From the IMG/VR virus record IMGVR_UViG_637000107_000010: a DNA stretch of 64,000 nucleotides; one strand, given 5' to 3'. Origin of the DNA: a virus. Its lineage: Duplodnaviria; Heunggongvirae; Uroviricota; Caudoviricetes. Position numbers: made by a program. This document shows positions 24,001-27,000 of this stretch, piece by piece; within the stretch, counting starts at the first letter, position 1, and each line of letters starts with the position of its first letter.

Positions 24001-27000
24001 GGCTAAAGGTGGCAGAATTTATTTTGTACAAACCAATGGTTATGGCTTTTGGTATAGAGAAAAAAGTTATTGCTTTTTGACGTAAAAACTGCTTCAATTC
24101 CGGTAAGCTTCGCAAAGCTGTACCGCGAGGCGAATAGCAGACATGGACATTTGAAAGAGCCCGCTTTTTGCGGGTTTTTTTATGACTGAAAAACGGCACG
24201 GGGCGTTAAACGCGCTGGTGGTTGCTAATACCGGTCTTTCAACTTGCTGGCTTTTTCGACAAGAGTTATTGGTATGTCACGTTAACCGGAAAAGGGAAAA
24301 AGACATGCTAAAACAGCAGGATATGACAGAAACCGCCAGAGTGGTGTTTAATGAATTAAGCGTTACCGAACCGGCGACAGTCGGGGAGATTGCGCAGAAT
24401 ACTTACCTTTCACGCGAACGCTGCCAGTTAATACTGACCCAGCTGGTTATGGCGGGTCTGGCAGACTATCAGTGCGGTTGTTACAGACGCATTCAGTCCT
24501 GAAGGCTTTTTATTTGTGGTAAATGGGCGGCTGGTGGGGGGGGCGGCACCTGTCAGTCCTTTGCTTATGTGTTGATGATAATTTACCTTTTGGGGCTATA
24601 ATTGAGCTAACCAATTGCTAATGAAAGTAAAATTATAATGGCTGTTGTCTGTTCAGTTATCATGGTTTGCTCCCCAATTAATATTTTTCTTGAAAAGGAT
24701 ACGTTGTCACTTAAGCCAGGCTCAGTCGTTCTGGCCACCAAATGCATCAGGGAGCTTTTCCTTATGCATTATGGCAAAGTTAAAATTGTCGATATAAGCN
24801 AATCCGTCGTAAGTCAATATCTGGAAAGTCAGCATAAGCTGACGAGGACTCGTCTGACTGACATTCCGCTTTACCTGTTNCTGGAACCCAACAANCCTGC
24901 GTTGGCTGCGGCTTTAATTACCAGCCAGGGATTTTCCGGAGAGGTCACGGATATGTTTCTTATGATGGCCTGCCTGTCTCTGTTTGAAACAGATGAACGG
25001 ATGTCATTGTTTTTAAGTGGATGTTTATCCAGCATAAGTGCCAAAGTCAGGGCGATAATTCAGACAGATATATCAGCAAGCTGGACGCTTGGTGCGATTG
25101 CTCTACAGTTGCATATGAGTGAGAGTTTGTTAAAGACAAAACTGAAAAATGAAGGGGGCATGTTCAGTCGCTTGTTGCTGGAAGAGCGGATGCGTGTTGC
25201 TGTAAATATGTTATGTTCCCGGTATGGATATGGACAGGCTGTAGCAGAAAAATGTGGTTATTCAAGCCGGTCCTACTTTATTTCTGTATTTCACCGCTAT
25301 TATGGCTTCCCGCCAGACAGATATGTATCCAGGCAAGGGCTTGATTATTGATTTTCATCTGATTATTATTTTTTGGCTCGGCCCTTTAGCTCAGTGGTGA
25401 GAGCGAGCGACTCATAATCGCCAGGTCGCTGGTTCAAATCCAGCAAGGGCCACCATCACAAACCGCCATTAGCTTATCAGGAAGAGCAGACGACACCATA
25501 ACAGGGTTGTTGGTGCGGGGCCGGGTCCCCGATGGCGGTCCATTATCGGTATTCTGCGTTGTTAGCTCAGCCGGACAGAGCAATTGCCTTCTAAGCAATC
25601 GGTCAGTGGTTNGACTCCACTACAACGCGCCACACTTATTTTCCAGGCTCGCTTCGGCGGGCCTTTTTTGTATCTGCGCCACGCCCGGCGCATACCAACC
25701 ACAGAGCCTTTCGGGGGTGAGCTTACGGAGTGGTCAGTGTGACTTTCTCTGTGGGCAGATCGCTCCCGGGCGTTGGCTCACCCACCCAAAGGAACGTCAC
25801 GATGTTTGGAATCTTCAAAAAGAAAACCCGCAGAGCGGCAACGGAAATTAAAAAGTTTGAAAAACGCGATCTGGCACAGGTGGTGATTAACGCCGCATAC
25901 CTGGTGGCCTGTGCAGATGGTGAATGTGAGGCATCCGAGAAAGCGAAGATCGAACAGGTACTGCGGTAATCAGCCTGCGCTGTACGCGTTTACGTCAGAA
26001 ATTAATGCGATTAGCGCAACCATTATCGGTCAGCTGGATACGAACTTTAAAACTGGTCGTCGTGCGGCGTTACGTGAGATNGAGGATGTGAAACACGATA
26101 CGCGTGAAGCGGAAGATGTGCTGGATGTGGCGGTGGCCATTGCGGAGGCAGACGGCGAAATTGAGCCGGAAGAGCGCAAGGTGCTGGAAGAGATTGCCGG
26201 TGTTCTGGGTCTTCGTCTGGAGAATCACCTGTGACGGTAAAACTGCGCCTGNCTGTGGCTGCACTCCTGCTGTTTCTGGTGGTGATGGTGGATTTCACCA
26301 GCAGAATCATGTCGGTGCTGGCGGATGGGGTGCTGGTCTGCGGCATTGTGGTATTGCTGTGGCCGGTGATAAAAAGAAACAGCCTGCATAATGCTTGATT
26401 TTTTTGTTTGCTGTTTATTAAAAACACTTCTGCATGGTGAATCCCCCTGTGCGGAGGGGCGATCAGCAANNAGGTATATGGGATAATCGCGGATTCAGGT
26501 GCTGATACTGAATTCACCGGGAGGCACCCGGCACCATGCAAGAAAAAGAATGTGCATGCAAACATGCCCCTCTCCGGAGGGGCTTTTTTATGGGTAAAAA
26601 ATGCCCGAATGGGTTCGGGCAATAGCATGAGATACTGATATTGTTGTGTTGTTATCGTGTGGATTTTAACCAGGGTTTATCAGGCTGCGCAACTGCGTGG
26701 CCTTTTTTCATTTCTTGGGCTGTAGTCCCCGAGTGTCATTCAGGCTTCCGGACTACAGCCAGCCCACTCCATATCTGATTTAATNCACTATCCCGGCCGG
26801 GAGGAATAATGACATTTAAACATTATGATGTTGTCAGGGCGGCGTCGCCGTCAGACCTTGCGGAAAAGCTGACACACAAACTGAAAGAGGGCTGGCAGCC
26901 ATACGGCGGACCGGTTGCCATTACGCCGTACACACTGATGCAGGCGGTGGCTATTGAAGGAGAGCCACAGGTCGGCCCTTCATCTGAGCCGGATTGGTAC

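What the first reader, a model, noticed from the sequence alone, without database searches (positions are those of the whole stretch)
25380..26400. Position normally occupied by stx (between phage tRNAs and nanS-p) carries a TerB-like gene and a small membrane ORF
The Q-like gene, terminator, tRNA-Ile2/tRNA-Arg pair, nanS-p and pinholin/SAR-endolysin arrangement is the architecture of Stx-converting phages, but no A or B toxin subunit genes are present. The slot holds a TerB-domain-like ORF (frameshifted) and an overlapping 55-codon hydrophobic ORF instead. This could be an stx-negative relative or a different cargo gene expressed from the late promoter.
Basis: partly seen in the sequence, partly recalled or inferred. 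Interest (0 to 1): 0.45.

Follow-up and report, generated by a model that had tools for sequence, protein, structure and literature searches.

The report
tciAB cargo cassette in stx slot
The place where Shiga-toxin phages carry stx is filled here by the already-annotated phage gene pair tciA/tciB plus two known small RNAs, which is ordinary for stx-negative prophages of pathogenic E. coli; the one unexpected thing is a conserved, pseudoknotted RNA leader in front of tciA that no RNA database lists.

Summary
Between the tRNA-Ile2/tRNA-Arg pair and nanS-p lie a TerB-family gene (tciA, 25802-26234) and an overlapping 55-codon two-helix membrane ORF (tciB, DUF3927, 26231-26398). There is no stx anywhere in the window.

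The locus is 98-99.7% identical to annotated prophages such as Sakai Sp10 and strain 319. Tree et al. 2014 already describe this position as the moron site that holds stx2 in Sp5.

Homology with Sp5 breaks at 25680 and resumes at 26414, so tciAB and stx2AB are alternative cassettes between the same flanks.

The slot also holds an STnc100-family sRNA (26403-26595) and the anti-sRNA AgvB (26596-26657, minus strand).

The frameshift is a single extra G at 25965. It is absent from 2374 tciA copies in 644 complete genomes and from 80 viral loci. The assembly is N-ridden, so this is probably an assembly error.

TciAB function has not been tested experimentally. The pair also occurs in P1 and in virulent jumbo and N4-like phages.

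A new side finding is a ~130-nt tciA leader (25672-25801). It is a covariation-supported pseudoknotted RNA with an anti-SD element, is absent from Rfam, and recurs upstream of ant genes, including in an Stx2 phage.

The parts
23514..24080 (+). Q-like late antiterminator gene (DUF1133 family; RefSeq start equivalent to 23526)
   Evidence: Pfam DUF1133 at 349 bits, plus a weaker Phage_antitermQ match. phrog_753 'anti-termination protein Q-like'. 100% identical to the strain 319 protein.
24638..25351 (+). AraC-family regulator gene (YdeO/GadX-like) inserted between Q and the tRNAs
   Evidence: Pfam HTH_AraC and HTH_18. NCBIfam YdeO and GadX matches fall below their cutoffs. The same gene is in strain 319.
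25380..25455 (+). phage tRNA-Ile2 (anticodon CAT; ileZ-type)
   Evidence: ARAGORN; Rfam tRNA at 72.5 bits; annotated ileZ4 in Sakai Sp10.
25463..25542 (+). degenerate argN-like tRNA remnant (acceptor ends retained, middle diverged)
   Evidence: It aligns with argN(TCG) of Sp5. ARAGORN does not call it. 24 of 80 related loci have an intact tRNA-Arg(TCG) at this position.
25556..25632 (+). phage tRNA-Arg (anticodon TCT; argO-type)
   Evidence: ARAGORN; Rfam; argO4 in Sp10.
25645..25672 (+). intrinsic-terminator-like hairpin plus T-run after tRNA-Arg; last element shared with Stx2 phage Sp5 on the left side of the slot
   Evidence: Terminator scan: 8-bp stem with 6 GC pairs, followed by TTTTTT. 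Homology with Sp5 ends at 25680.
25672..25801 (+). conserved structured 5' leader of tciA. It consists of hairpin 1 (25676-25691), an anti-SD CCUUU (25707-25711), a long hairpin, a pseudoknot between the hairpin-1 loop CGCCC and GGGCG (25768-25772), and the SD AAAGG (25788-25792).
   Evidence: Covariance model R1 scores the window copy at 159 bits. More than 100 copies lie upstream of tciA in diverse phages. 90.9% of cells are paired against 37-44% in slid controls, and the pseudoknot is 100% paired with covariation. An alternative SD-sequestering fold lies 2.4 kcal/mol above the MFE. There is no Rfam match at E<=10.
25802..26234 (+). tciA (TerB-family protein, 143 aa when intact), interrupted by a +1 G at 25965
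   Evidence: Pfam TerB and phrog_632. PDB 2JXU (TerB) at E=2.9e-7 over residues 15-137. The frameshift was located, and the allele is absent from 2374 copies.
26231..26398 (+). tciB (DUF3927, 55 aa, two hydrophobic helices). Its GTG start overlaps the tciA stop.
   Evidence: Pfam DUF3927 and phrog_1470. It sits at the same +431 offset in 75 of 80 loci. Homologues lie next to tciA in P1, ChrisDB, Pollock, LMessi and pPE4.
26403..26595 (+). STnc100-family sRNA (PasD-related) ending at a terminator (26566-26583 plus T-run)
   Evidence: Rfam RF02076 at 145.9 bits against a gathering score of 47. Terminator scan. Zhu et al. 2026 preprint.
26596..26657 (-). AgvB anti-sRNA (a mimic of GcvB targets), convergent with the STnc100-family RNA
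   Evidence: Rfam RF02702 at 96.5 bits against a gathering score of 56. The 5' region contains CACAACA (read). AgvB1 lies in Sp10 according to PMC4104026.
26809..28661 (+). nanS-p (SASA-family sialate O-acetylesterase). It is N-rich and frameshifted in this assembly.
   Evidence: Pfam SASA, DUF1737 and DUF6645 on the intact homologue. tblastn finds two pieces. There are 22 Ns in 26001-28000.
28782..30092 (+). IS3-family IS1203/IS629-like element that breaks the late operon after nanS-p (end coordinate approximate)
   Evidence: 100% match to the IS1203 of strain 319, starting at 28782. orfA HTH_Tnp_1.

Best explanation
The window holds the late-region 'moron' slot of an stx-negative, Sp10-like lambdoid prophage of pathogenic E. 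coli. The known tciA-tciB cassette occupies the position that stx1 or stx2 occupies in Stx phages.

Shown:
- The cassette lies between the flanks shared with Stx2 phage Sp5. On the left are tRNA-Ile2, an argN remnant, tRNA-Arg and a terminator. On the right is a convergent sRNA pair (here STnc100-family and AgvB), followed by nanS-p.
- TciA is a stand-alone TerB-fold protein with two ADGE-x4-E acidic motifs.
- TciB is a 55-aa two-helix membrane peptide whose start overlaps the tciA stop, which suggests translational coupling.
- The pair is conserved as a unit from lambdoid prophages to P1, N4-like phages and Erwinia/Salmonella jumbo phages.
- The cassette brings its own ~130-nt structured leader, which has a pseudoknot and an anti-SD element.

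Inferred:
- In an intact phage the cassette is transcribed by Q-modified RNA polymerase reading through the terminator after tRNA-Arg, as stx2 is.
- Translation of tciA is gated by the leader. It would switch between an SD-sequestered fold and an SD-open fold stabilised by the pseudoknot.
- TciB anchors TciA at the inner membrane, where the complex acts on a membrane or ion-related process that benefits phage development. It would not act as a classical tellurite pump or reductase.
- The +1 G frameshift is most likely an assembly error. If it is real, it is a private inactivating mutation in a prophage already broken by IS elements.
For: Identity and position:
- 98.0-99.4% identity over 1421 bp to hundreds of complete genomes, annotated 'TerB family protein | DUF3927 | tRNA-Arg | tRNA-Ile'; 735 genomes hold at least 80% of the query.
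- The Sakai Sp10 and strain 319 annotations agree.
- Slot boundaries against Sp5 were mapped.
- Tree et al. 2014 describe the PR'-downstream moron site, with stx2 in Sp5 and convergent sRNAs in Sp10.

Families: Pfam, PHROG and PDB matches. Rfam STnc100 and AgvB both score above their gathering thresholds.

Conservation of the unit:
- 75 of 80 loci have tciB at +431, and 0 of 80 have stx.
- 46 loci have a fixed 170-nt spacing from the nearest upstream tRNA (tRNA-Arg(TCT) in the commonest layouts), and 65 of 80 have upstream tRNAs.
- In LMessi and pPE4 the cassette sits between Q and the holin/endolysin genes.
- The pair is present in the virulent phages ChrisDB and Pollock and in P1.

No promoter-like site lies between the terminator and tciA, and strong terminators flank the cassette.

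Frameshift:
- Against strain 319, the only called-base differences in 6.5 kb are the +G at 25965 and one substitution 19 bp downstream. Every other difference is an N, and two of those are inserted Ns.
- The allele is absent from 2374 copies.
- tciA has a median of 4 copies per genome, so collapsed paralogues are plausible.

Leader.
Against: - No expression data were examined, so Q-dependence is purely positional.
- In P1 the tci genes lie in the C1-controlled Pban operon. Late timing is therefore not universal.
- An AraC-like gene and a small ORF lie between Q and the tRNAs, and the position of PR' was not located.
- In this window the late operon is cut by IS1203 after nanS-p and the nearest lysis genes are inverted. 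This particular prophage may be defective and the cassette may never be induced.
- The TciA-TciB physical interaction, metal binding and any phenotype are untested. P1 tciA/B/C are dispensable for plaque formation.
- The frameshift cannot be proven to be an artefact without the reads.
Confidence: 0.85

Rival explanations
1. The frameshift is genuine. On this reading tciA is a decaying pseudogene in a defective, IS-riddled prophage, and the cassette has no function in this strain.
For: - The extra G is in the sequence as given.
- IS1203 and an IS66-family element interrupt the late region, and the lysis block is inverted.
- nanS-p also reads as frameshifted.
Against: - The assembly has 122 scattered Ns, including inserted Ns, which shows that indel errors occur in it.
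- The allele is found in none of 2374 copies in complete genomes, nor in 80 viral loci.
- The two called-base differences from strain 319 cluster within 20 bp, as expected for a local consensus error among paralogous copies (median 4 per genome).
Confidence: 0.25
2. tciAB is a lysogenic-conversion or defence module expressed in the lysogen independently of Q. The membrane-tethered TerB protein would act in membrane surveillance or superinfection exclusion, by analogy with the TerB proteins of Shango, Bunzi and Dionysus and with the phage-inhibition phenotype of ter operons.
For: - TerB domains occur in validated defence systems, and a membrane-surveillance role has been proposed for them.
- PHROGs files both genes under 'moron, auxiliary metabolic gene and host takeover'.
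- Terminators flank the cassette, as in a classical moron.
- EHEC genomes keep several copies, with a median of 4.
Against: - PADLOC gives no family match: one hit at E=0.005 to an unrelated candidate.
- No sigma-70-like promoter was found between the terminator and tciA.
- The pair is also carried by strictly virulent jumbo and N4-like phages, which do not form lysogens.
- No effector-like partner is present.
Confidence: 0.2
3. The cassette confers tellurite (or colicin) resistance, as its database name suggests.
For: The only support is name and homology. [quoted passage not shown]
Against: - None of the other ter genes (terZ, A, C, D, E, F) is in the slot.
- TerB is one internal component of a multigene system.
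- No experiment on tciA was found.
Confidence: 0.05
4. The conserved leader is not a translational switch. Instead it would be an RNA processing or stability element (for example an RNase III, RNase E or RNase P site) that separates the tciA or ant mRNA from the upstream tRNAs or late transcript, or a protein-binding operator.
For: - It always lies inside polycistronic contexts, directly after tRNAs or after the endolysin gene.
- A long, irregular hairpin dominates the fold.
- The loop and bulge sequences are conserved, which could be protein contacts.
Against: - The invariant CCUUUC is complementary to the invariant SD.
- The SD-sequestered fold is the MFE in three of the four leaders tested, and is near-isoenergetic in the fourth.
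- Two mutually exclusive helices that share one 3' strand both show compensatory changes.
Confidence: 0.3

Closest known systems
E. coli O157:H7 Sakai prophage Sp10 locus ileZ4-argO4-ECs_1959 (TciA/TerB-like)-tciB-AgvB1-ECs_1961 (nanS-p)
   Same: The order of elements is the same, and identity is 98.0% over the 1421-bp slot. AgvB1 was reported in Sp10. The leader RNA is also the same.
   Different: The window copy carries the +1 G in tciA. It has an AraC-like gene and a small ORF between Q and the tRNAs, as in strain 319 (99.7% identical). IS1203 follows directly after nanS-p.
stx2AB moron of Stx2-converting prophage Sp5 (933W-like)
   Same: The slot is the same: downstream of Q and the phage tRNAs with their terminator, and upstream of a convergent sRNA pair and nanS-p. 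The flanks are homologous at 86.7% and 73%. A diverged copy of the leader RNA lies upstream of the ant gene in the Sp5 lysis region.
   Different: The cargo is unrelated: an AB5 toxin against a TerB-fold protein plus a membrane peptide. The Q family differs, argN is intact in Sp5, and the anti-sRNA there is AsxR rather than AgvB.
Bacteriophage P1 tciA-tciB-tciC
   Same: TciA is 40.6% identical. tciB is adjacent and homologous. The genes are embedded among phage tRNA genes, including tRNA-Ile2(CAT). They are non-essential accessory genes.
   Different: P1 has a third gene, tciC. The P1 genes lie in the C1-controlled Pban operon, not in a Q-dependent late operon. The structured leader is absent.
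TerB of the terZABCDE tellurite-resistance/phage-inhibition operon (Klebsiella TerB, PDB 2JXU)
   Same: Same Pfam family, and alignable over nearly the full length at E=2.9e-7. The C-terminal acidic DG-motif is retained.
   Different: There are no TerC, TerD, TerE or TerZ partners. The protein pairs instead with a DUF3927 peptide and is carried by phages. No tellurite phenotype has been shown.
SD-sequestering translational riboswitches and RNA switches (the general class, for the leader only)
   Same: The leader lies directly upstream of the SD. It has an invariant anti-SD, two mutually exclusive conserved folds, and a pseudoknot that would stabilise the SD-open fold.
   Different: No ligand or trigger is known, and there is no match to any Rfam family. 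The downstream genes (tciA and ant/KilA-N) share no obvious metabolic theme.

Membership tests
TerB protein family (Pfam PF05099) | Profile match above the curated threshold over the whole domain | tested here: met
   53.4 bits against a cutoff of 24.4, residues 31-138. phrog_632 at 231 bits, full length. PDB TerB 2JXU at E=2.9e-7. This was tested on the intact homologue; the window copy needs removal of the extra G.
TerB protein family (Pfam PF05099) | Helical-bundle fold with acidic metal-binding motifs | not tested
   Two ADGE-x4-E motifs are visible in the sequence. No structure prediction was run and no metal binding was tested.
TciB / DUF3927 (PF13064) | Profile match above threshold, ~55 aa, located immediately downstream of a TerB-family gene | tested here: met
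   62.5 bits against a cutoff of 25. phrog_1470. The start overlaps the tciA stop. The same adjacency is seen in 75 of 80 loci and in P1, ChrisDB, Pollock, LMessi and pPE4.
ter tellurite-resistance system (terZABCDE) | TerB accompanied by TerC and TerD-family genes in one operon | tested here: not met
   Only tciB, sRNAs and nanS-p adjoin tciA. No TerC or TerD gene is annotated in any related locus examined.
Stx-converting phage | stxA and stxB genes downstream of Q and the tRNAs | tested here: not met
   There is no tblastn hit to Stx2A or Stx2B in the window, nor in 80 related loci.
Stx-converting phage | Late-region architecture Q - tRNAs - cargo - nanS-p - S/R/Rz | tested here: inconclusive
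   The stretch from Q to nanS-p is present and collinear. The lysis genes follow in relatives. In this window they are inverted behind IS1203.
Phage moron (Juhala et al. 2000 sense) | Inserted DNA flanked by its own promoter and terminator, absent from otherwise homologous phages | tested here: inconclusive
   Presence/absence polymorphism is shown: stx2AB in the same place in Sp5, and some phages have only ~570 bp between the tRNAs and the nanS-p upstream region. Terminators flank the cassette. No promoter-like site lies between 25672 and 25802.
AgvB anti-sRNA (Rfam RF02702) | Covariance-model score above gathering, and a GcvB R1 target motif CACAACA in the 5' variable region | tested here: met
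   96.5 bits against 56. The reverse complement of 26640-26657 reads CGATAACAACACAACAAT. The motif definition comes from PMC4104026.
STnc100 sRNA (Rfam RF02076) | Covariance-model score above gathering | tested here: met
   145.9 bits against 47, full model 1-206.
Known TerB-containing anti-phage systems (PADLOC-DB models, e.g. Shango, Bunzi) | Match to a system-specific protein model, with partner genes adjacent | tested here: not met
   The only hit is a sub-significant one to PDC-S48 (E=0.005, 13.9 bits). There is none for TciB.
Any Rfam 15 family (for the tciA leader) | Covariance-model match to 25672-25801 | tested here: not met
   No match overlaps the leader core at E<=10, apart from chance-level hits to eukaryotic and unrelated families. 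The same holds for the ant-type copy.

The most novel reading that the evidence does not exclude
The ~130-nt leader in front of tciA (25672-25801) may be an undescribed class of cis-regulatory RNA switch carried by phage accessory genes.

- Architecture: it has a hairpin whose loop forms a covarying pseudoknot with the 3' base of a long hairpin. It has an invariant anti-SD (CCUUUC). It can adopt two mutually exclusive conserved folds that hide or expose the ribosome-binding site.
- Distribution: it travels with tciA from E. coli, Klebsiella, Citrobacter and Pantoea prophages to Erwinia and Salmonella jumbo phages. A diverged form precedes the ant/KilA-N gene inside the lysis cassette of many lambdoid prophages, including the Stx2 phage Sp5.
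- Consequence if true: it would gate translation of late-operon morons in response to an unknown signal such as a ligand, an ion, temperature or a protein.
Probability: 0.4. Interest if true: 0.6.

Novelty: already known. Interest (0 to 1): 0.25.

Why it matters
RefSeq annotates the tciAB cassette and its neighbours in hundreds of genomes, and the idea that the PR'-downstream slot holds exchangeable morons (stx2 in Sp5, other cargo plus convergent sRNAs in Sp10 and others) is published.

Three things are useful:
1. The swap boundaries are now precise (25680 and 26414). The slot's real content includes AgvB, a known colonisation-relevant anti-sRNA, and an STnc100/PasD-family sRNA.
2. The 'frameshift' should not be read as biology.
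3. tciAB remains an experimentally uncharacterised, very widespread phage gene pair. It is present in temperate, plasmid-like and strictly virulent phages, so it probably serves lytic development rather than tellurite resistance.

The leader RNA is the only element that could open a new question. If it is a genuine switch, it would be a handle on how accessory genes inside the Stx-phage late operon are translationally controlled.

Tried and rejected
- Genome-wide 17-mer scan (AGAGCCTTTCRGGGGTG) of 596 Gb of species-representative genomes. It gave 96 hits, about the number I estimate for chance matches of a 17-mer in a collection of that size. Only 6 proved real with the covariance model. It was of little use for adding diversity.
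- PADLOC search for membership of a defence system: nothing.
- Rfam at gathering-free thresholds on the slot, the leader and the ant-type copy. It found only tRNAs, STnc100, AgvB/AsxR and chance hits.
- Literature searches for ECs1959, DUF3927, 'TerB-like protein', tciA/tciB, and TerB with 'RNA motif'. No functional study of the lambdoid tciAB and no description of the leader turned up.
- Promoter scan: no sigma-70-like site directly upstream of tciA, and PR' could not be placed.
- Model R1 against P1, Pollock, Pseudomonas AF, Vibrio K480 and viral loci with TciA at <=45% identity: no leader. The leader is therefore confined to one tciA subclade plus the ant genes.
- Automatic pair counting for the ant-type leaders was not attempted. 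The model-based alignment misplaces their pseudoknot by one column, so those variants were read by eye.
- Considered and rejected:
  - The leader as coding sequence. An in-frame GTG at 25730 exists, but the substitutions are compensatory in helices rather than at third codon positions.
  - The leader as a terminator. No U-run follows the long hairpin.
  - The leader as a tRNA remnant. It has no T-arm, and neither ARAGORN nor Rfam calls a tRNA there.
- The minus-strand ORF 26047-26628 (193 aa) matches the old annotation ECs_1960. It is rejected as a gene because it overlaps tciA, tciB and the STnc100 RNA, and current RefSeq annotation has dropped it.
- Structure prediction and the large protein-database searches were not spent. 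The family assignment was already unambiguous.
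Full report
**Observation**

- ARAGORN finds tRNA(CAT) at 25380-25455 and tRNA-Arg(TCT) at 25556-25632. RefSeq relatives annotate them as ileZ (tRNA-Ile2) and argO.
- A TerB-like reading frame starts at ATG 25802 and ends at 26234. It is broken by one extra G at 25965 (alignment with three relatives; base-by-base comparison). The first 55 codons then hit a stop. Deleting the G restores a 143-aa protein that differs from WP_001302123 by one substitution and one N.
- A 55-codon ORF (26231-26398) starts with a GTG that overlaps the tciA stop codon.
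- No Stx2A-like or Stx2B-like sequence exists anywhere in the 64 kb.

**What the genes are**

- The intact protein matches Pfam TerB (53.4 bits, cutoff 24.4) and phrog_632 over its full length. It aligns with the solved Klebsiella TerB (2JXU) at E=2.9e-7.
- The small ORF matches DUF3927 (62.5 bits) and phrog_1470, named 'TciB-like'. It has two hydrophobic stretches.
[quoted passage not shown] P1 TciA is 40.6% identical.
- In a genome-wide CRISPRi screen all three P1 genes were non-essential (PMC10695390).
- I found no experimental work on the lambdoid copies.

**How ordinary the locus is**

- The 1421-bp slot matches hundreds of complete E. coli genomes at 98.0-99.4% identity over its whole length; 735 genomes hold at least 80% of it. 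All are annotated 'tellurite resistance TerB family protein | DUF3927 family protein | tRNA-Arg | tRNA-Ile'. They include O157:H7 Sakai prophage Sp10 and EDL933.
- Strain 319 carries the whole 6.5-kb stretch from upstream of Q through tciB at 99.74% identity.
- Tree et al. 2014 state that the sequence downstream of the Q-antiterminated PR' tolerates morons. They note that Sp5 holds stx2 there with convergent sRNAs 3' of stx2B, and that Sp3, 4, 9, 10, 11, 15 and 17 have a similar organisation. They also place AgvB1 in Sp10 (PMC4104026).
- A 2026 preprint lists TerB (PF05099) among the conserved neighbours of prophage sRNAs PasA/PasC, and relates STnc100 to PasD.

**Slot boundaries**

- BLAST of the window against the Sakai Stx2 prophage Sp5 gives homology over 25376-25680 (86.7%). 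That stretch covers tRNA-Ile2, the argN position, tRNA-Arg and the terminator.
- Homology returns over 26414-26906 (73%). This starts 86 nt after the stx2B stop in Sp5 and 16 nt after the tciB stop in the window.
- So about 733 bp (leader, tciA and tciB) stand in for about 1369 bp (stx2A and stx2B).
- The right-hand flank is not empty. Rfam finds an STnc100-family sRNA at 26403-26595 (145.9 bits, gathering 47). It also finds AgvB on the minus strand at 26596-26657 (96.5 bits, gathering 56). The AgvB copy has the GcvB-target motif CACAACA in its 5' part (read).

- In 80 IMG/VR loci encoding a TciA 96-100% identical to this one, tciB sits at the same +431 offset in 75. nanS-p and/or the holin and lysozyme genes follow downstream wherever the contig allows. 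None has an Stx2A/B-like gene within 5 kb.
- 65 of the 80 have phage tRNAs directly upstream. In 46 the nearest upstream tRNA ends exactly 170 nt before the tciA start.
- None of the organism groups listed for the 131 phage records with a TciA homologue, or for the 52 records with cassette DNA, is an Stx-converting phage.
- In other temperate phages (LMessi, pPE4) the pair lies between a Q-like gene and the holin/endolysin genes, with no tRNAs or nanS-p.
- So tciAB is not 'elsewhere' in related phages. It is a recurrent occupant of the Q-to-lysis interval and, in the data examined, mutually exclusive with stx.

**The frameshift**

- The window has 122 scattered Ns. They cluster in repeated prophage genes, with 22 in 26-28 kb.
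- Against strain 319, 15 of the 17 differences over 6.5 kb are Ns, and two of those are inserted Ns. The only two called-base differences are the +G at 25965 and an A/C 19 bp later.
- A 71-mer spanning the site has no exact match among 2374 tciA copies in 644 complete genomes. The best match differs only by the gap.
- All 80 viral loci encode an uninterrupted protein.
- tciA has a median of four copies per carrying genome, so consensus errors from collapsed paralogues are plausible.
- I rate an artefact at roughly 70-75% and a private real mutation at roughly 25%. Either way it is not a feature of the element.

**Context corrections**

- After nanS-p (itself N-rich and split) comes an IS1203/IS629-like element starting at 28782.
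- Next is a minus-strand block. It holds a truncated ClpP-like prohead protease, terminase, Rz (35695-36219), lysozyme (36498-37031) and a P21-type holin (37719-37925).
- An IS66-family element follows.
- The pinholin/SAR-endolysin genes are therefore present but inverted relative to Q. A second, plus-strand fragment (nanS-p 3' end, holin, truncated lysozyme) lies at 1-2192.
- This prophage region is rearranged or mis-joined at IS copies. In relatives the order is collinear.

**How it most likely works**

Shown:
- TciA is a stand-alone TerB-fold protein with two ADGE-x4-E motifs.
- TciB is a two-helix membrane peptide whose start overlaps the tciA stop.
- The pair is conserved as a unit in lambdoid prophages, P1, the virulent N4-like phage Pollock (gp27/gp28) and virulent Erwinia/Salmonella jumbo phages (ChrisDB gp6/gp7, pSal-SNUABM-04).
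- Strong terminators flank the cassette, and no promoter-like site lies between the upstream terminator and tciA.

Inferred:
- Transcription is by Q-modified polymerase reading through the terminator after tRNA-Arg, as for stx2.
- TciB tethers TciA to the inner membrane.
- The complex acts on a membrane or ion-related process that helps phage development. Carriage by strictly virulent phages argues against a purely lysogenic role.
- Tellurite resistance is unlikely, because none of the other ter genes is present.

A defence or superinfection-exclusion role in the lysogen remains a live rival. TerB domains occur in Shango, Bunzi and Dionysus. However, PADLOC gives no membership.

**An unexpected element: the tciA leader**

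- Conservation: DNA similarity to distant phages begins about 100 nt upstream of tciA. In Klebsiella and LMessi-type phages it is higher there (79-80%) than the 41% protein identity would predict.
- First alignment: leaders from seven phages show invariant blocks and visible compensatory changes.
- Consensus structure: RNAalifold gives a 5-bp hairpin, an outer helix GAGCC:GGCUC and a long hairpin.
- Distribution: a covariance model built from that alignment (R1) finds the element directly upstream of tciA in every lambdoid-type, LMessi-type or jumbo-type locus searched (57 matches, 48). It also finds it in Citrobacter, Pseudescherichia, Pantoea and Enterobacter genomes. It does not find it upstream of distant tciA genes in P1, Pollock, AF, K480 or the loci with <=45% identity.
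- Statistics on the 60-sequence alignment: 90.9% of cells pair, against 37-44% when partners are slid. 17 pairs change on both sides, against a shuffle mean of 6.6, and 0 of 500 shuffles reach the observed value.
- Pseudoknot: I proposed a pseudoknot between the hairpin-1 loop and the 3' base of the long hairpin. It was not part of the model, yet it is paired in 100% of cells. The variants are CGCCC/GGGCG, CGCUC/GAGCG, CGUCC/GGGCG, GGCUC/GAGCC, UGCCC/GGGCA, UCUCAC/GUGAGA and CGCAC/GUGCG.
- Second context: a diverged copy sits immediately upstream of the antirepressor/KilA-N gene between the endolysin and Rz. It occurs in L002 (52 bits), Sakai Sp10, strain 319 and the Stx2 prophage Sp5 (27.5 bits, E about 2e-4), and in pPE4.
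- Two folds: the invariant CCUUUC is complementary to the invariant SD AAAGG. The fold that pairs them, together with GGGUGAGCC:GGCUCACCC, is the unconstrained MFE in three of the four leaders tested. In the window it lies 2.4 kcal/mol above the MFE.
- Support for each fold: the two folds share one 3' strand, and each shows compensatory changes.
- Prior description: Rfam 15 has no match at E<=10, and I found no description in the searchable literature.
- Reading: I take this as a candidate translational RNA switch for late-operon accessory genes. The caveats are that the sequences are related, that independent events are few, and that a processing or protein-binding role is not excluded.

**Verdict**

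- The finding is already known and annotated, so it is of low interest in itself.
- The frameshift is most likely an artefact.
- The slot's content should be extended to include the STnc100-family sRNA and AgvB.
- The structured tciA/ant leader is the only part that may be new and worth following up.

Noticed in passing
window 25672-25801 (model match 25672-25810): A conserved ~130-nt structured 5' leader of tciA. It has a covarying hairpin, a covarying pseudoknot (loop CGCCC with GGGCG) and an invariant anti-SD CCUUUC facing the SD AAAGG. It is found upstream of tciA in lambdoid, Klebsiella, Citrobacter and Pantoea prophages and in Erwinia/Salmonella jumbo phages. No Rfam family matches it.
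   Followed up: yes
L005 11679-11822 (Sakai Stx2 prophage Sp5); L001 9716-9859 (Sp10); L002 10716-10862; L004 16302-16445; L093 4387-4529: A diverged copy of the same leader lies directly upstream of the antirepressor/KilA-N gene between the endolysin and Rz. It carries compensatory pseudoknot variants (UCUCAC/GUGAGA and CGCAC/GUGCG) and an altered outer helix (GAACC/GGUUC). This copy is not present in the window.
   Followed up: partly
They are convergent, as described for Sp10.
   Followed up: yes
window 24638-25351: An AraC-family regulator gene lies between Q and the phage tRNAs. Its best NCBIfam similarity is to YdeO and GadX, below their cutoffs. From memory, it resembles the prophage-encoded Psr/PatE-type regulators of acid resistance and the LEE in EHEC. 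I did not test that.
   Followed up: no
window 25463-25542: There is a degenerate argN-like tRNA between tRNA-Ile2 and tRNA-Arg(TCT). The acceptor-stem ends match Sp5 argN, but the middle has diverged and ARAGORN does not call it. 24 of 80 related loci keep an intact tRNA-Arg(TCG) here.
   Followed up: partly
window 28782-41339: IS1203/IS629-like element directly after nanS-p. Next is a minus-strand block: truncated ClpP-like protease, terminase, Rz, lysozyme and P21-type holin. An IS66-family element (about 38676-41339) follows. The late region is inverted or mis-joined at IS copies.
   Followed up: partly
window 1-2192: A second late-region fragment lies on the plus strand. It comprises the nanS-p 3' end (1-916), a holin (1368-1571) and the first 73 codons of a lysozyme (1974-2192). 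So the window holds pieces of more than one prophage.
   Followed up: no
window 37035-37720 (minus-strand lysis block): About 685 bp separate the holin and lysozyme, where relatives have a 345-bp ydfR-type gene. This stretch contains a plus-strand 104-aa ORF (37149-37463) of unknown nature.
   Followed up: no
window, whole (e.g. 21268, 21922, 26470-26471, 27654-27723): There are 122 scattered Ns, some of them inserted bases relative to near-identical genomes. They concentrate in multi-copy prophage genes. This is a draft-quality consensus, so single-base indels elsewhere in the window (for example in nanS-p) deserve the same suspicion as the tciA frameshift.
   Followed up: yes
L006 (P1) 1616-3276; L087 (ChrisDB) 886-3277; L003 (JLK-2012) 3792-4786: tciAB is repeatedly embedded among phage tRNA genes in unrelated phages. 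In P1 the order is tRNA-Asn, tRNA-Thr ... tciABC, tRNA-Ile2. JLK-2012 has tRNA-Asn, Thr and Gly before tciAB. The jumbo phage has tRNA-Trp and Cys before it and Tyr, Gln, Ile and Met after it. This may be a shared accessory island or a functional link; I cannot say which.
   Followed up: partly
window 24107-24180: There is a weak isrK-like Rfam hit (19.8 bits, E=0.57) immediately downstream of the Q-like gene, where a short PR' transcript would be expected. It is below any threshold.
   Followed up: no
window 26047-26628 (minus strand): A 193-aa ORF lies antisense to tciA, tciB and the STnc100 RNA. It corresponds to the old Sakai annotation ECs_1960, which current RefSeq annotation has dropped. 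It is almost certainly not a gene.
   Followed up: partly
L108 (700-bp scaffold labelled Kocuria sabuli) 106-245: A full-length, high-scoring copy of the enterobacterial-phage leader (146 bits) sits in a 700-bp scaffold of an actinobacterial assembly. It is probably contamination of that assembly.
   Followed up: no
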